Shown here: piece by piece, positions 8,169-23,492 of the stretch
Position numbering within the stretch: the first letter of the stretch is position 1
Layout: every line of letters starts with the position of its first letter
Source of the DNA: Desulfuromonadales bacterium
GTDB lineage: Bacteria > Desulfobacterota > Desulfuromonadia > Desulfuromonadales > SZUA-540
Reading direction: 5' to 3'
Length of the DNA stretch: 27,817 nucleotides
Assembly: GCA_033549025.1 (NCBI GenBank)
Contig: JAWSUS010000034.1
Coordinates: forward strand, 1-27,817
Position numbers and translations under genes: made by a program
The notes under the pieces: model-generated
What the model was told of the DNA's origin: nothing
Databases searched by the model: none
Seen by the model: only the letters and a program-made list of their open reading frames with translations

Positions 8169-8261
8169 AGTAGCCTCCCTGGCACGAAGGGCAGCGAATC
8201 TCTTGCCATTAATTATACACCCTTCTGGCCGTCTCACCGGCTCCGGCGGTAACAGACCTTG

Positions 8262-8302
8262 AAAAAAACGCCCCGCAGGAAAGACGATTCCTGCGGGGCG
8301 TT
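8262..8302 (-). terminator. Rho-independent terminator after the aminotransferase
   Basis: Stem AACGCCCCGCAGGAA/TTCCTGCGGGGCGTT ending in a T7 run on the minus strand. Confidence 0.9.
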
Positions 8303-8321: not shown

Positions 8322-9398
8322 TCAGCTGCGGGCGTCAGGCAGAAGCTCCTCCAGCAGGGTGAACAATTCCTCCAGGTCGGCCGGGGTGAAGTCGGCCATG
8401 TGCGGAATGCGGAAGGTCTTGTTCTTGATTTTGCCGTAGCCGTTGTCAATGGCGTAGCCCCGCTCGCTGGCCAGCTTTTTCAGCTTCTCGAGGTCGGTGC
8501 GCTGGTCGTTTTGCCCGGCGGTCAGGGTCAGGGAGCGGTAGCCCTCGGCGGCGAAGAGACCGAATCCCTGCGCCTGGATCCACTGGCGGGTCATCTCGGC
8601 CATCTGCCGGTGGCGGGCGTAACGGTTGTCGAGCCCTTCTGTCATCATTTTGGCGAGCTGGTGGTCAAGGGCGTAGATGAGGCTGATGCAGGGAGTGCTG
8701 GGGGTGTTGTCCTTGAGGTCGTTCTGCTCGAACTCTTCGAAGTCGAAGTAGTAGCCGCGATTGGGCGTTGTCTTGGCCTTGTCGAGAGCCCGGCGCGATA
8801 CGGCGAAGACGGCCAGCCCCGGTGGCAGACCGAAAGCCTTCTGCACGCCGGCCAGGCAGACGTCGGTCTGCAGGGCGGCCAGGTCGATCGGGACGGCGCT
8901 CATGGAGGAGACGGTGTCGACGATAAAGGAGACCTCAGGATATTTCTTCATGACGTCGGCAATCTCGGCCAGAGGGGACATGACGCCGGTGGAAGTCTCG
9001 TTGTGAACGACGGTCATGGCGTCGTACTTGCCGCTGGCCAGGGCGCTGTCGACCATTTCCGGCGTAATGGGCTGCCCCCATTCGGCGCTGAACAGATCAG
9101 CTTCGAGCCCGCAGCGGCGGGTGACGTCGTGCCATTTGGCGCTGAAGGCGCCGTTGGCGAAGTTGGCGCAGCGCTTCTGCACCAGATTGCGCACAGCCCC
9201 TTCCATGACCCCGAAGGCGCTGGAGGTGCTGAGAAAAACGGGATCGCTGGTATTGAGAAGCGTCTTGAGGGCCCGGGTCACCCGCTGATGCAGGACAGCG
9301 TATTCTTTCATGCGGTGCCCGATCATGGGAGCGCACATGGCCTCCATGACGTCGCGACTGACTTCTACCGGTCCGGGGATGTAAAGTTTCTTGCCCAT
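8322..9398 (-). CDS. Class V PLP-dependent aminotransferase (alanine/serine-glyoxylate or phosphoserine aminotransferase-like)
   Basis: MGKKLYIPGPV start with AAGGAG RBS (9408-9413); HNETSTG, VDTVSS and PLP lysine in GVQKAFGLPPG. Confidence 0.93.
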   Translation of the reverse strand: MGKKLYIPGPVEVSRDVMEAMCAPMIGHRMKEYAVLHQRVTRALKTLLNTSDPVFLSTSSAFGVMEGAVRNLVQKRCANFANGAFSAKWHDVTRRCGLEADLFSAEWGQPITPEMVDSALASGKYDAMTVVHNETSTGVMSPLAEIADVMKKYPEVSFIVDTVSSMSAVPIDLAALQTDVCLAGVQKAFGLPPGLAVFAVSRRALDKAKTTPNRGYYFDFEEFEQNDLKDNTPSTPCISLIYALDHQLAKMMTEGLDNRYARHRQMAEMTRQWIQAQGFGLFAAEGYRSLTLTAGQNDQRTDLEKLKKLASERGYAIDNGYGKIKNKTFRIPHMADFTPADLEELFTLLEELLPDARS

Positions 9399-9430
9399 CG
9401 TCGAGGTCTCCTTACTCGTAGGGACAAAAT

Positions 9431-9470
9431 AAAAAACGCCTGGCTCCAGTGATGATGGGGAGCCCAGGCG
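9431..9470 (-). terminator. Riboswitch expression-platform terminator
   Basis: Minus strand CGCCTGGGCTCC-N11-GGAGCCAGGCG-TTTTTT; the 5' arm overlaps P3 and the pseudoknot of the aptamer. Confidence 0.88.
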
Positions 9471-9539
9471 AACGGCTGACCGGGCCTTGATATCCTGCTC
9501 CCCGGTGGTGTCCCACCTTTCGCCAGTCACAGGAGGCCC
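9462..9539 (-). promoter_or_regulatory. ZMP/ZTP (pfl) riboswitch aptamer
   Basis: Minus strand CCTGTGACTGGCGAAAGGTGGGACACCACCGGGGAGCAGG-linker-GCCGTTCGCCTGGGC matches the pfl motif: P1 CCTG/CAGG, P2 GGTGG/CCACC, P3 GCC/GGC, pseudoknot GGCGA/TCGCC. Confidence 0.93.
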
Positions 9540-9676
9540 TTGAATTGTTCGGTTAATCTGGCGACTCATTAGCATATCCGCCGGGGCGCTGTCAAGCCGT
9601 TCGCGCCGACTGTCGCCCCGTTTCAGGCAAATGGCGGGGATGGGTCGGACGGTTGAGAATTTTCTGGAGAAACCCC

Positions 9677-9704
9677 TTGACATTCTATCTGAGCTGATTA
9701 TATT
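9677..9704 (+). promoter_or_regulatory. Sigma70-type promoter of groESL
   Basis: TTGACA (9677-9682), 16-bp spacer, TATATT (9699-9704), immediately upstream of CIRCE. Confidence 0.75.
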
Positions 9705-9715
9705 TAGCGCTGTTG

Positions 9716-9742
9716 TTAGCACTCCCTGTGAATGAGTGCTAA
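9716..9742 (+). promoter_or_regulatory. CIRCE element (HrcA operator)
   Basis: Perfect TTAGCACTC-N9-GAGTGCTAA upstream of groES. Confidence 0.97.
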
Positions 9743-13399: not shown

Positions 13400-14680
13400 T
13401 CAGGAGGCCTGACTGTCGGGATAGAGGCTGAGAGCCTCATCGACCAGTTCCAGCAGATGGACAGCCTTCTGATTCTGGCCGGCATGGTTGAGACTGTCCT
13501 GCAGCTGCATGATGCAGCCGGGGCAGTCGGTGGCGACCAGTTCGGCGCCGCTGGCCTCGATGTTGGCCGCTTTTTTGGCCCCGATTTTTTTGCTGGTGTC
13601 GTAGTGATAGACCGAATAGGTGCCGCCCAGGCCGCAACAGGTTCCGGATCCGGTCATTTCGACAAAATCCACCTGGGGCAGGGCCTTGAGGATGAGGCGC
13701 GGTTCCTTGGTGATGCCGCGGGTGCGCAGATGACAGGGGTCGTGATAGGTGACCCGGGTGCGCTGGGCCGCTTTGGGCAGGGCGGCCAGCTTTTCGGGGA
13801 AGCCCTGCTCGACCAGAAAGACGAAAATGTCCTTGGTCTTGGCCGCCAGTTTCTCGAAATCGCCTCCCATCTCGCCATAGATTTTGCCGAGACCGGCGTT
13901 GCAGGTGGCGCAGGCTGTGACCACGTAGTCGACGGGGTGGCGATTGAGGGCGGCCAGGTTCTGCTCGGCCAGTTGTTCGACCACCTCGCCGGCGCCGGCG
14001 CTGACGGCGGGCAAGCCGCAGCAGGCCTGATCCTTGGGGATGACGATGGTCACACCGAGAAATTTCAAGGTTTTGAGAAAGACTTCACCGATCTGGGGAT
14101 ACATGTAGTTGATGCCGCAGCCGGTGAAGAAGGCGACGGTGGGCGCCCCTTCTTTGCCAGGGATGATTTCGGGGTGCTGCTCCCGGAAGGGCTTGGCGGC
14201 GATAGGCGGCAACGTGCGGTCCCGGTCGAGATACGGGGCAGGAAAGCGCAGGCGCAGACCACTGTTTTCCGGCAGTTTCTTGAAGAGTAGGGAAGAGAGC
14301 GCCCCACCCGTCTTGGCCAGCGTGTTCATGAGTTTGGGACGGCCCAGAACGGCAGCGACGCCCTTGCCGAAACTGCTCAGGCCACGTTCCTCGGCGATGC
14401 GACGGCGAGCGGCCGCGACAATGTCGTCAGTGGGGACCTTGTTCGGGCACTGGGCGCAGCAGCTGCCACAGAGCAGGCACTGGCTCATGTCCTCGAGCAC
14501 CTTGGCCTCCAGGTCGATCTGCCCTTCCAGCAGGGAGTGGGCCAGGGCTACCTTGCCCCGGGCCACGCGCCCTTCGTGCTTCTCGGCGCCGAAGACGGGA
14601 CAGTGGGCGCGGCAGGCGCCGCATTTGACGCATTGCTCTATCTCTTCTCTGAAATCTTCGAGTTTCTTCAGTTTGCTCAT
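13400..14680 (-). CDS. glcF: GlcF-like Fe-S subunit (two 4Fe-4S motifs plus two CCG domains) of a 2-hydroxyacid dehydrogenase
   Basis: CVKCGACRAHCP, CLLCGSCCAQCP, ACCG, YHDPCHL, TCCG and DCPGC. Confidence 0.88.
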   Translation of the reverse strand: MSKLKKLEDFREEIEQCVKCGACRAHCPVFGAEKHEGRVARGKVALAHSLLEGQIDLEAKVLEDMSQCLLCGSCCAQCPNKVPTDDIVAAARRRIAEERGLSSFGKGVAAVLGRPKLMNTLAKTGGALSSLLFKKLPENSGLRLRFPAPYLDRDRTLPPIAAKPFREQHPEIIPGKEGAPTVAFFTGCGINYMYPQIGEVFLKTLKFLGVTIVIPKDQACCGLPAVSAGAGEVVEQLAEQNLAALNRHPVDYVVTACATCNAGLGKIYGEMGGDFEKLAAKTKDIFVFLVEQGFPEKLAALPKAAQRTRVTYHDPCHLRTRGITKEPRLILKALPQVDFVEMTGSGTCCGLGGTYSVYHYDTSKKIGAKKAANIEASGAELVATDCPGCIMQLQDSLNHAGQNQKAVHLLELVDEALSLYPDSQAS

Positions 14681-14752
14681 AAAAAAACCAATATGACGTG
14701 CTGGAGTAGTGGGGACGGTGTGCTCCGACAGTTCACACCGCTCACCCTGGGT

Positions 14753-16132
14753 TCAATCCAGAAAAATTTTGCCGGGATTGAGGATGTTGTTGGGGTCAAG
14801 GGCCTTTTTGACCGCCTTCATGTAGGCTGCCGTCTGCTCGCTGAGTTCGAGGGGAATAAAGGCAGCCTTGGCGATGCCGACCCCGTGCTCGCCGCTCATG
14901 GTGCCGCCGAGGGCGAGGGCGCCGCGAAAGACCTCTTCAATGGCCTTTTCGGCGATCTCCATCTGGCCGGGAATTTTCTTGTCGATCATGACGTTGACGT
15001 GGATGTTGCCGTCGCCGGCGTGACCGAAGTTGACGATGGGGATCTGGTATTTCTCTGAAATAGCATCGACTTTGCGAATCATCTCCGGCACTTTGCTGCG
15101 CGGCACGCAGATATCCTCGTTGAACTTGTCGGGATTCACTTTGCGCAGCGACGGGGAAACGGCGCGGCGGATCTGCCACAGGGCCTCACTCTCTTCCGGG
15201 GTGGTGGCGATGCGCGTCTCCACGACGCCCAGGGGCTGGATGATGTCGCTGATGCGGCCCACCTGCTTGTCGAGAAACTCGCGGTCGCCATCGACCTCGA
15301 TAATGAGCACGGCCCGGGCGTTTTCGGGCACCTGCAGGCCGGTGGCCTGGCGCACGCAGTCGATGGTGCGGCCATCCATGAATTCGAGGGTCGTTGGGAT
15401 GATCTTGCCGCGAATGATGGCCGAGACGGCCTGGGCGGCGCCGTCGATGGAATCGAAGAGCACCAGCATGGTCTTTTTGGCTTCGGGCAAAGGCAACAGC
15501 TTGATGACGATGCGGGTGATGATGCCGAGGGTTCCCTCCGAGCCGCACATGAGTTTGGTCAGGTCGTAGCCGACCACGCCCTTCATGGTCGGTCCCCCCG
15601 TGGTGATGATGTCGCCGGTGGGGGTGACGACTTCAAGGCCGAGGATGTAATCCTTGGTCACGCCGTACTTGACGCAGCGGGGGCCGCCGGCGCACTCGGC
15701 CACGTTGCCCCCCAGGGTGGAGAACTTGAGGGAAGCCGGGTCGGGGGGATAGAAGAGCCCCACCTTTTCGACGGCCTGCTGAAACTGTTCGGTCACCACG
15801 CCGGGTTCGACGACGGCGACGAGATTTTCCTCGTCGATCTCGAGGATGCGGTCAAGTCGCTCGGTGCAGAGGACGATCCCGCCCTTGGTGGGCAGGCTGC
15901 CGCCGGAAAATCCGCTGCCGGCGCCGCGGGGAAAGACGGGGATCTTCTCGGCGTTGGCCATCTTCATGACCAGGCTGATCTCTTGGGCGTCGGCGGGAAA
16001 GACCACGGCCTCAGGCAGATACTGCTGCTGGGTGGCGTCATAGGAATAGCAGATCAGATCGGCCTTTTGGGTGGAGACGTTCTCTTTGCCGACGATATCC
16101 TGCAGGATTTTTACAAGTCGTGATTCGAGCAT
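14753..16132 (-). CDS. glcD: GlcD-like FAD-linked D-2-hydroxyacid (glycolate/D-lactate) dehydrogenase
   Basis: PRGAGSGFSGG, YPPDPAS, GSEGTLG, FGHAGDGNIH, GEHGVG and LNPGKIF. Confidence 0.92.
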   Translation of the reverse strand: MLESRLVKILQDIVGKENVSTQKADLICYSYDATQQQYLPEAVVFPADAQEISLVMKMANAEKIPVFPRGAGSGFSGGSLPTKGGIVLCTERLDRILEIDEENLVAVVEPGVVTEQFQQAVEKVGLFYPPDPASLKFSTLGGNVAECAGGPRCVKYGVTKDYILGLEVVTPTGDIITTGGPTMKGVVGYDLTKLMCGSEGTLGIITRIVIKLLPLPEAKKTMLVLFDSIDGAAQAVSAIIRGKIIPTTLEFMDGRTIDCVRQATGLQVPENARAVLIIEVDGDREFLDKQVGRISDIIQPLGVVETRIATTPEESEALWQIRRAVSPSLRKVNPDKFNEDICVPRSKVPEMIRKVDAISEKYQIPIVNFGHAGDGNIHVNVMIDKKIPGQMEIAEKAIEEVFRGALALGGTMSGEHGVGIAKAAFIPLELSEQTAAYMKAVKKALDPNNILNPGKIFLD

Positions 16133-16177
16133 GTTTTTATACCTTTTCTGGGCCGCCGGGGCGGCGGGTAACGCGGA

Positions 16178-17446
16178 TCAGACGAGGACGGGCAGTACGC
16201 TGCCGCCATCGGGGATGACCACCGTCCTGGGGTTTTTGTTCAGCCCCTTGTACGCCATCCGCAGGGCTTCGTCAAGATCGGCGGCCTTTTCCATGCCCAT
16301 CTGGCGGGTTTCTTCGGCACCGAGTTCGCTGACCAGAATCAGCCGGTATTTTATCGCCTTGAGCAGGGTGGCATAGGCCGTCTGTCCGTTGATTTCATAG
16401 TGCTGACGCAACTGCGCCTCAAACTCCTGCAGATCCTGATAGCGAAACCAGTTGAAAAAGGTGCTGTTGCCGAAGCCATCCGCGCAGGCGGCGAGCAGAA
16501 TGAGGGTGCCCCCCGGCTTGAGGGCGCCAACCCCATAATCGAGGGCCTTGTGGGCTTGGATGAAATTGATGTCTTTAGGGTAGCCGCCGCAGGAGACCAC
16601 GGCCAGGTCGAAAGGCGCCTCCAGGGGGATGGCGTAGAGATCGTTCACCTTCCGGCAGGCAGCCAGGTGGGCCTGTTCCAGTTCGCCGCAGGTCACGCCA
16701 AGGATCTCCTTGCGGGGAGACAGAACCGTGTTGAGCACGAAGTCGGGGCCAATCATACGGGCGGCTTCCAGCAGGGCAGCATGGACGGGATTGCCTTCGA
16801 GGACACCCGTTACCGCGCGGGGGTGCTTGCCGCCTATTTCAGGGGGATTGAAAACGGCGAAATGGGTGGCCATACAGGTTTCACGGCTGGCGACGCCGGG
16901 GACCAACCCCTTGCGGCCGCCGCCGAAACCGGCGAAGTAGTGAAAGCCCGCGGTGCCGGTGACGATGACCCGATCTGCTTCGGTGACCTTGCGGTTGACC
17001 GTAACGGGAATGCCGCCGGCCGTGCGTCCCAGCGTCACGAGGTCGGCGGGATTATCGCAGTTGTGATCGCTGACGCGGATGCGGCCGTAAAGGGGGCCGA
17101 GAATCTTGCGGTGCTCCTGTTCCGTTTGGGGGCGGTGAATGCCGAGGGCGATCAGAATCTCCATGTCCCCGTCAGCAATGCCGCAGTCGTTGAGATGATC
17201 TACCAGGATGGGCAGGTAGACCTCGCTGCCGGTGTAGCGGGTGATGTCCGAGGTGACAATGACGACGCGCTCGCCGGGATGCACGATATCGGCCAGACAG
17301 GGACTGCCCAAAGGTGCGGTGAGGCTCTGACGCACCAGGTCCTCGGCGGACAGGGGCGGAGTCAGGCTGCGGGGACTCAAAACCTGGCCCTCGGGGAGGG
17401 TGCAGTTAAGGGTGCGCTCGCCGTATTTCAGTTCGATAACCGACAA
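16178..17446 (-). CDS. larA: LarA-family nickel-pincer-dependent lactate/2-hydroxyacid racemase
   Basis: SDITR, LGIHR, HYFAGFGGGRK, MATH, GGYPKDINFIQAHK; TTG start with GGAGG RBS 7 nt upstream. Confidence 0.88.
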   Translation of the reverse strand: MSVIELKYGERTLNCTLPEGQVLSPRSLTPPLSAEDLVRQSLTAPLGSPCLADIVHPGERVVIVTSDITRYTGSEVYLPILVDHLNDCGIADGDMEILIALGIHRPQTEQEHRKILGPLYGRIRVSDHNCDNPADLVTLGRTAGGIPVTVNRKVTEADRVIVTGTAGFHYFAGFGGGRKGLVPGVASRETCMATHFAVFNPPEIGGKHPRAVTGVLEGNPVHAALLEAARMIGPDFVLNTVLSPRKEILGVTCGELEQAHLAACRKVNDLYAIPLEAPFDLAVVSCGGYPKDINFIQAHKALDYGVGALKPGGTLILLAACADGFGNSTFFNWFRYQDLQEFEAQLRQHYEINGQTAYATLLKAIKYRLILVSELGAEETRQMGMEKAADLDEALRMAYKGLNKNPRTVVIPDGGSVLPVLV

Positions 17447-23416: not shown

Positions 23417-23492
23417 GGGGCTGTAGCTCAGCTGGGAGAGCGACGCGTTCGCAATGCGTAGGTCGTGAGTTCGATCCTCATCAGCTCCACCA
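23417..23492 (+). tRNA. tRNA-Ala (anticodon CGC)
   Basis: 76-nt cloverleaf: acceptor GGGGCTG/CAGCTCC with G3:U70, anticodon arm ACGCG-TTCGCAA-TGCGT, TTCGA loop, encoded CCA. Confidence 0.97.

What the first reader, a model, noticed from the sequence alone, without database searches (positions are those of the whole stretch)
8322..9539. ZMP/ZTP riboswitch controlling a stand-alone class V aminotransferase
Seen: a full pfl-motif aptamer (9462-9539, minus strand) whose P3/pseudoknot strand is also the 5' arm of an intrinsic terminator ending about 33 nt before the ATG. This is the layout of a transcriptional ON switch. The gene has its own downstream terminator. Known: ZTP riboswitches report 10-formyl-THF shortage and usually precede purH, glyA, pfl, fhs or fol genes. 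Inference: the enzyme supplies one-carbon donors, either as a non-canonical phosphoserine aminotransferase or as a glyoxylate-to-glycine aminotransferase. That gives a generically annotated enzyme a physiological role and may extend the ZTP regulon.
Basis: partly seen in the sequence, partly recalled or inferred. Interest (0 to 1): 0.7.

Follow-up and report, generated by a model that had tools for sequence, protein, structure and literature searches.

The report
Folate-stress riboswitch on alternative serine aminotransferase
A known RNA sensor of one-carbon (folate) shortage sits in front of a vaguely annotated aminotransferase gene that very likely supplies the otherwise missing middle step of serine synthesis in these iron- and sulfur-reducing bacteria, which would make serine supply their response to folate stress; this is a logical extension of a known system.

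Summary
Confirmed. Rfam RF01750 (ZMP/ZTP) matches 9455-9540(-) at 62.8 bits (cut-off 39). Its pseudoknot/P3 strand is the 5' arm of a terminator, the layout of tested ZTP ON switches. It is the only ZTP switch found in this genome. In 24 of 25 Desulfuromonadales genomes with a hit it lies directly before the same gene; the 25th is cut by a contig end. The 358-aa class V aminotransferase is very likely a SerC3-type phosphoserine aminotransferase. The genome has serA and serB but no other serC, and only 1 of 155 order genomes holds both this gene and canonical SerC. Homologues are fused to SerB, SerA or SerBK domains, or sit under a Ser T-box. By eye, its N-terminal third is about 50% identical to a complementation-validated SerC3. 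The glyoxylate reading is weaker. Nothing was assayed. Novelty is modest: a relative's copy of this RNA is already in the 2010 pfl alignment, ZTP control of a serine-synthesis gene is in print (PMC9481103), and this scan noted ZTP before serC-serA on other DNA. New here: the functional assignment, a one-gene ZTP regulon in the genomes searched, and decayed switches in several lineages.

The parts
9566..9595 (-). Predicted sigma-70-type promoter: -35 box at 9595-9590 and extended -10-like element at 9574-9566
   Evidence: Positions. A similar -35 plus TG-n-TA element is visible upstream of most orthologues, with or without the riboswitch (by inspection). The strict consensus scanner did not list it. 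Start site not measured.
9455..9540 (-). ZMP/ZTP (pfl-motif) riboswitch aptamer: P1, P2, P3 and pseudoknot (9524-9521 with 9470-9467)
   Evidence: RF01750, 62.8 bits. In 35 orthologous leaders, 98.3% of cells at 20 aptamer pairs are standard pairs, 16 cells change on both sides, and the 4 pseudoknot pairs are invariant.
9426..9470 (-). Intrinsic terminator hairpin 9470-9437 and U tract 9436-9426; its 5' arm is the pseudoknot/P3 strand
   Evidence: The 7 basal pairs are kept in 99.2% of cells across 35 leaders, with no two-sided changes, and are followed by U-rich tails.
9408..9413 (-). Shine-Dalgarno-like site
   Evidence: it lies downstream of the terminator, outside the aptamer.
8322..9398 (-). 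358-aa PLP-dependent class V aminotransferase (P0001), likely SerC3-type phosphoserine aminotransferase
   Evidence: Near-invariant D161, K187, R330 and H28-R29. Model pLDDT 98, closest fold 2dr1 at TM 0.96. Distribution and fusion evidence.
8260..8302 (-). Gene's own intrinsic terminator (15-pair hairpin 8302-8267 plus T run)

Best explanation
A ZMP/ZTP riboswitch whose pseudoknot strand doubles as the 5' arm of a terminator sits directly in front of a stand-alone class V aminotransferase gene, and it would switch transcription on when ZMP/ZTP rises, raising an enzyme that is likely the cell's phosphoserine aminotransferase (SerC3 type). Inferred chain: shortage of 10-formyl-THF stalls PurH, so ZMP/ZTP accumulates; ligand binding locks P3 and the pseudoknot; the invader strand (9447-9437) cannot form the terminator; RNA polymerase reads through. 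More SerC3 would then give more phosphoserine and serine (with SerA and SerB), and GlyA, the glycine cleavage system and FolD would turn serine into 10-formyl-THF. Shown: the RNA anatomy, its conservation and exclusive link to this gene, the serC gap in the genome, and the near-exclusive distribution with canonical SerC. Inferred: ligand binding, direction of switching, substrate, and the effect on flux.
For: RNA: RF01750 hit; terminator fold; forcing P3 costs about 10 kcal/mol against the terminator fold (-36.7 vs -46.5, pseudoknot and ligand not modelled); both structures conserved in 35 leaders; same layout as the tested Clostridium beijerinckii and Fusobacterium ulcerans ON switches (PMC10085676, PMC7484762; passages). 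Link: 24 of 25 hits in 151 order genomes lie 45-230 nt before the orthologue on the same strand, and one is at a contig end with its terminator intact. Enzyme: the genome has serA and serB over cut-off, but no serC_1 or serC_2, and P0001 is its only SerC/AGT-like class V protein. In 41 genomes: 29 orthologue, 11 canonical SerC, 0 both, 1 neither. In 155 genomes: 67, 81, 1 both, 8 neither. Homologues are fused to DUF1015/SerBK (P0004 51%, P0010 48%), to HAD domains (P0115, P0144), and to SerB plus a SerA-like domain (P0121). A 43% homologue precedes a serA-like gene under a T-box whose specifier reads UCC (Ser). 16 of 23 more distant homologues (33-36%) are followed by serA. A SerC3 validated by complementation (PMC13759103) matches P0001 at 62 of the first 124 residues without gaps, counted by eye from the printed passage. 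glyA, gcvP, folD and purH are present and fhs was not found.
Against: No assay of binding, read-through or substrate. No NCBIfam equivalog cut-off is reached, and the best-scoring model is BhcA (196 bits against a cut-off of 650). The closest solved structures are an uncharacterised archaeal protein and AGT/SGAT enzymes. The His-Arg motif is not diagnostic: BhcA has it too. The orthologues in the order are never next to serA in the loci examined, and only 1 of 80 loci of the 51-56% relatives has a serA-like neighbour. The complement with SerC mostly follows family lines, so it rests on few independent events. Most orthologues lack the switch (36 full hits among 100 loci), so it is dispensable. 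A threonine-aldolase-like gene offers another glycine and one-carbon source. A genome paper calls what is probably this gene a 'nonspecific aminotransferase' (PMC3543383; identity of the locus tag not verified). The terminator stem shows conservation but no compensatory change.
Confidence: 0.8

Rival explanations
1. The switch is real, but the enzyme is a broad-specificity aminotransferase whose ZTP-relevant job is glyoxylate to glycine or hydroxypyruvate to serine, feeding one-carbon units by a non-phosphorylated route.
For: Fold and sequence neighbours are AGT/SGAT-type. The glycine cleavage system is present. A glcD/glcF-like pair in the window could make glyoxylate (below cut-offs). PMC3543383 proposes glyoxylate/hydroxypyruvate recycling by aminotransferases in a relative.
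Against: No isocitrate lyase or GlyXL found. It leaves the serC gap and the mutual exclusion with SerC unexplained. The protein groups with the serine-pathway fusions (SH-aLRT 86, quick tree), apart from BhcA/SGAT (100).
Confidence: 0.11
2. The enzyme is SerC3, but the switch in this genome is vestigial or nearly constitutive, acting as a fixed attenuator, as in the lineages where it has decayed.
For: Five relatives keep only partial or remnant elements with the terminator side (L083, L027, L090, L024, L074). One RNA-library contig runs across the terminator (DNA not excluded).
Against: The window copy keeps all invariant aptamer positions, scores 120.9 bits on the lineage model it helped to build, and P1 shows two-sided changes across relatives.
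Confidence: 0.06
3. The gene's main role is general aspartate/glutamate transamination or the PdxF step of PLP synthesis, and the ZTP link tunes nitrogen or cofactor supply for purine synthesis.
For: Sources label orthologues 'aspartate aminotransferase-like'. PMC3543383 assigns oxaloacetate-to-aspartate activity to a nonspecific aminotransferase. SerC also serves PLP synthesis (PMC9997740).
Against: A separate class I aminotransferase-like gene is in the genome (by inspection). Fusions and the Ser T-box point to serine. A PdxF side role is compatible with the main reading.
Confidence: 0.03

Closest known systems
ZMP/ZTP (pfl-motif) riboswitch, Rfam RF01750 (Weinberg 2010, PMC2864571; C. beijerinckii pfl switch, PMC10085676; F. 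ulcerans switch, PMC7484762)
   Same: Full aptamer; terminator whose invader displaces P3 and the pseudoknot; predicted ON logic. A row from RefSeq record NC_007498.2 in the 2010 alignment shows the same leader type as named locus L103.
   Different: [quoted passage not shown] Here the target is an aminotransferase, and it is the only target found in the order's genomes.
Tandem ZTP/glycine riboswitches of Bacillus and Oceanobacillus (Sherlock 2022, PMC9481103)
   Same: Predicted ZTP activation of a gene of the phosphorylated serine pathway to refill 10-formyl-THF.
   Different: There the gene starts the conversion of 3-phosphoglycerate (serA-type) and a glycine switch is in tandem; here a single switch controls the second step, and serA lies elsewhere without a switch.
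SerC3 alternative phosphoserine aminotransferases (Ashniev 2022, PMC9026213; complementation in GapMind 2026, PMC13759103); also Synechocystis Sll1559
   Same: PF00266 family, replaces SerC1, nearly the same length (357 codons before the stop in the printed construct; 358 aa here), about 50% identity over the first 124 residues by eye.
   Different: Described mainly in serC3-serA(-serBK) operons of Clostridium, Akkermansia, Brevibacillus and Brachyspira; here stand-alone and ZTP-linked. In the terms searched, neither paper showed this order or a ZTP link.
BhcA / serine-glyoxylate / alanine-glyoxylate aminotransferases
   Same: Same fold (TM about 0.94 to plant AGT1); BhcA is the best NCBIfam score.
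   Different: Far below the BhcA cut-off (196 vs 650), about 30% identity, separate clade, no bhc or serine-cycle neighbours.

Membership tests
ZMP/ZTP riboswitch (RF01750) | Covariance-model score above the gathering threshold over the full model | tested here: met
   62.8 vs 39 bits, positions 1-86
ZMP/ZTP riboswitch (RF01750) | P1-J1/2-P2, P3 and pseudoknot with conserved pairing | tested here: met
   98.3% of cells paired over 20 pairs in 35 leaders, against 37-51% when slid; pseudoknot invariant. The rows are related, so the shuffle counts are not probabilities.
ZMP/ZTP riboswitch (RF01750) | 5' leader position and an expression platform that excludes the aptamer | tested here: met
   Terminator uses the pseudoknot/P3 strand; 24 of 25 hits directly upstream of the orthologue
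ZMP/ZTP riboswitch (RF01750) | Binds ZMP/ZTP and changes read-through | not testable with these tools
   Only RNA-library contigs were available
SerC3-type phosphoserine aminotransferase | PF00266 fold with PLP lysine, aspartate and carboxylate-binding arginine | tested here: met
   residue roles from general knowledge of fold-type I enzymes
SerC3-type phosphoserine aminotransferase | Occurs in genomes with serA/serB that lack SerC1 | tested here: met
   Own genome. Order: 1 of 155 genomes has both; serA/serB were checked only in the own genome.
SerC3-type phosphoserine aminotransferase | Co-localised with serA | tested here: not met
   No serA next to the window gene or its close orthologues. 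Met only by homologues (L153; 16 of 23 distant loci; fusions). In PMC9026213 this context held for 65 of 173 serC3 genomes, so it is supporting, not required.
SerC3-type phosphoserine aminotransferase | Sequence similarity to the validated member | tested here: inconclusive
   62 of 124 N-terminal residues identical, counted by eye from a cut passage; no full-length computed alignment and no curated SerC3 model in the libraries scanned
SerC3-type phosphoserine aminotransferase | Rescues a serC mutant or transaminates phosphohydroxypyruvate | not testable with these tools
   Needs bench work
Canonical SerC (NF003764, TIGR01364/5/6) | Score above the curated cut-off | tested here: not met
   49.7/253, 42.8/443.6 and 70.1/401.65 bits; no TIGR01365 match
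BhcA / SGAT glyoxylate aminotransferases | Cut-off score, clade membership, bhc or serine-cycle context | tested here: not met
   196/650 bits; separate clade; no such neighbours in the window

The most novel reading that the evidence does not exclude
In Desulfuromonadales the whole ZTP regulon is this one gene: the folate-stress alarm acts neither on purH, glyA, folD nor serA but on the transamination step of serine synthesis, making an unannotated SerC3 the regulated valve of one-carbon supply. The switch was gained once in the order, decayed repeatedly leaving terminator remnants, and disappeared together with the gene where canonical serC-serA operons took over.
Probability: 0.45. Interest if true: 0.55.

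Novelty: new member of a known kind. Interest (0 to 1): 0.4.

Why it matters
It gives a testable function to a conserved gene of Desulfuromonadales, with 61-69% homologues in Geobacteraceae, that public sources label only 'aspartate aminotransferase-like' or 'alanine--glyoxylate aminotransferase family' (1 of 120 listed hits is labelled predicted phosphoserine aminotransferase). It fills the serC gap in their serine pathway. It adds a SerC3 gene to the targets of ZTP riboswitches, and shows a one-gene regulon with intact, decayed and lost switches in one clade, a natural series for studying riboswitch loss. It would not change the general picture of ZTP signalling.

Tried and rejected
His-Arg phosphate motif as a marker of phosphoserine specificity: rejected, because BhcA and a Rhizobium AGT-like protein carry it too. 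Long 466-aa GTG reading through the riboswitch: rejected, since orthologue matches start at the ATG. RNA-seq: four sediment metatranscriptome runs held only as contigs cover parts of the leader and gene, and one 584-nt contig crosses the terminator; contigs show no ends, strand or level and may be DNA, so no conclusion. ZTP switches before wider homologues: none in 24 phylum/class loci, in 11 canonical serC loci or in the other loci, and none in 80 metagenome loci by nhmmer. serA adjacency of the 51-56% relatives: 1 of 80. Fold search does not separate PSAT from AGT. The careful tree did not finish; quick trees without bootstrap were used. In one search the pattern rule labelled L030 a remnant although Rfam and the lineage model score it as a full element, and three loci were too short to label. 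L022 looks like a remnant by eye but has no model hit. Papers not held: Kim, Nelson and Breaker 2015 and Meyer 2011. Additional files 1 and 3 of Weinberg 2010 (gene contexts) could not be read and may already list this gene. Sun 2013 (PMC3766115) has no pfl passage. No complex prediction was run: no binding claim is made.

Full report
Observation. The Rfam scan of the window finds the ZMP/ZTP aptamer at 9455-9540 on the minus strand, 62.8 bits against a gathering score of 39, over the whole model. The strand that forms the pseudoknot (9470-9467) and the 3' side of P3 (9464-9461) are also the 5' arm of a hairpin 9470-9437 followed by U's at 9436-9426. That 61-nt piece folds at -18.9 kcal/mol (z -2.68, 3 of 200 shuffles as good). 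Forcing P3 instead costs about 10 kcal/mol in a nested model that cannot count pseudoknot or ligand. A Shine-Dalgarno-like site (9413-9408) and the ATG (9398) follow. The ORF is 358 aa and ends before a 15-pair terminator at 8302-8267. A promoter-like pair of boxes at 9595-9590 and 9574-9566 recurs upstream of most orthologues (by inspection; not listed by the strict scanner).

The RNA across relatives. The window's genome (100% complete) has one RF01750 hit (150 of 578 candidates scored), and an nhmmer profile of the lineage's aptamers finds no second copy. Among 151 genomes of the order, 25 have one hit each (only 27 candidates scored per genome). 24 lie 45-230 nt upstream of the orthologous gene on the same strand (coordinates). 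The 25th is at a contig end, with its terminator, in a genome whose orthologue is cut at another contig end. None of 84 genomes from the five families that mainly use canonical SerC has a hit. Named loci place the group in Desulfuromonadales. In 35 distinct leaders, the 20 aptamer pairs are standard in 98.3% of cells with 16 two-sided changes, against 37-51% when the partners are slid. The 7 basal terminator pairs are kept in 99.2% of cells but show no compensatory change. A model built from these leaders, run on 100 loci, gives 36 full hits (35 of them its own training rows), 2 partly decayed elements (L083, L027) and 3 remnants (L090, L024, L074). Geobacteraceae, Nitrospinota and other outer homologues have none. 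On a quick protein tree, intact, remnant and absent states are interleaved within one 71-row group (SH-aLRT 93), which suggests one gain and repeated loss; this is inference from an unbootstrapped tree.

The enzyme. P0001 matches only Pfam Aminotran_5 and reaches no NCBIfam cut-off; BhcA scores best at 196 of 650. The model (pLDDT 98) is closest to Pyrococcus PH1308 and AGT/SGAT folds, so fold alone does not give the substrate. Context does. (1) Gap: the genome has serA, serB over cut-off and a DUF1015 gene, but no serC_1 or serC_2, and the other class V hits look, by inspection, like cysteine desulfurases, GcvP subunits and unrelated enzymes. (2) Exclusion: in 41 genomes, 29 have a close orthologue (75-100%), 11 have canonical SerC, none has both and one (86% complete) has neither. 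In 155 genomes at least 90% complete the counts are 67 (at least 69% identity, 3 partial), 81 (80 over cut-off), 1 and 8. The one with both carries a SerC only 38% identical to the order's usual one, beside a tRNA gene. The split mostly follows families, so it reflects few events; G115, inside a SerC family, has the orthologue instead. In 7 of 11 canonical serC loci serA follows directly. (3) Fusions: of 7 longer homologues scanned, 2 carry DUF1015 (51% and 48% to P0001), 2 a HAD domain, and 1 SerB plus a SerA-like domain; the other 2 show no serine-pathway domain. DUF1015 is SerBK, shown to replace serB (PMC13759103, passages). (4) A 43% homologue in Acetoanaerobium precedes a serA-like gene under a T-box with specifier UCC and antiterminator UGGC, which I read as serine-specific from general T-box rules. 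(5) 16 of 23 loci of 33-36% homologues have serA next; 3 of the other 7 are cut by contig ends. (6) SerC3, defined by Ashniev 2022 (PMC9026213, passages), rescued an E. coli serC mutant, as did homologues only 30-38% identical to it (PMC13759103, passages and supplement). The printed start of that gene matches P0001 at 62 of 124 residues without gaps, counted by eye. On a quick tree P0001 groups with the DUF1015 and one HAD fusion (SH-aLRT 86), apart from BhcA/SGAT (100).

Against. No orthologue in the order lies next to serA, and 1 of 80 loci of the 51-56% relatives does. The His-Arg motif is shared with BhcA. A threonine-aldolase-like gene could supply glycine independently. A genome paper calls Pcar_2772, probably this gene but not verified, a nonspecific aminotransferase (PMC3543383, passages and supplement search). 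Enzymes of this subgroup are often broad, so side activities are likely.

Mechanism. From established ZTP biology (PMC10085676, PMC7484762, PMC7266159; passages): lack of 10-formyl-THF raises ZMP/ZTP, and binding protects P3 and the pseudoknot from the invader, so the terminator does not form. Here that would raise SerC3. The genome has purH, glyA, gcvP and folD, and fhs was not found, so serine and glycine are the evident one-carbon sources and boosting serine synthesis closes a feedback loop. Binding, direction, substrate and flux are all inferred.

What is known. The RNA class and layout are textbook. [quoted passage not shown] Sherlock 2022 predicts ZTP activation of a gene that starts serine synthesis in Bacillus and Oceanobacillus (passages). 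Ten literature searches (listings, with passages read in 12 papers) showed no text linking a ZTP switch to a SerC/SerC3 gene or to this order; the two primary pfl papers were not held. Earlier notes of this scan report ZTP before serC-serA in Solirubrobacterales (unchecked).

Verdict. A real, conserved ZTP riboswitch in front of a gene that is very likely the order's alternative serC (confidence 0.8 for the combined reading). New member of a known kind; interest 0.4.

Noticed in passing
window 9677-9742 (+): Perfect CIRCE-type inverted repeat (9716-9742; 0 in 100 shuffles; consensus recalled) just after a sigma-70-like promoter (9677-9704) for the divergent groES-groEL operon; ordinary HrcA control is likely.
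   Followed up: partly
L083, L027, L090, L024, L074 (and possibly L022), leaders of the orthologue: Decayed ZTP aptamers that keep the terminator side, which may act as fixed attenuators.
   Followed up: partly
window 13400-17446 (-): larA-like racemase, glcD-like and glcF-like genes in a row, all below NCBIfam cut-offs. PMC9997740 suggests that a Geobacter glycolate-oxidase-like pair may replace PdxB in PLP synthesis; orthology not checked.
   Followed up: no
G000:C2:310792-312384 and C2:86253-87836; C5:77599-78807; C1:278461-279810: The genome has two serA-like genes (41% identical to each other), and both an ACT-SerB and a DUF1015/SerBK gene.
   Followed up: partly
L151 (G071:C10:1081-2151): The only genome with both enzymes carries a divergent canonical SerC (38% to the order's type) about 1 kb from a tRNA gene, possibly a recent acquisition.
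   Followed up: partly
L153:4674-6996 (Acetoanaerobium noterae record): Serine-type T-box ahead of an aminotransferase and a serA-like gene, unannotated in that record.
   Followed up: yes
P0121, P0004, P0010, P0115, P0144: Fusion proteins joining two or all three serine-pathway enzymes (SerB-aminotransferase-SerA-like; SerBK-aminotransferase).
   Followed up: partly
L070, about 75 nt upstream of the gene: A 7-nt tandem repeat array fills the leader where the riboswitch would be.
   Followed up: no
L104: A record titled Pedobacter carries a gene and leader nearly identical to Pelobacter loci L105 and L109; probably a naming slip in the public record.
   Followed up: no
window 23417-23489 (+): tRNA gene.
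   Followed up: no
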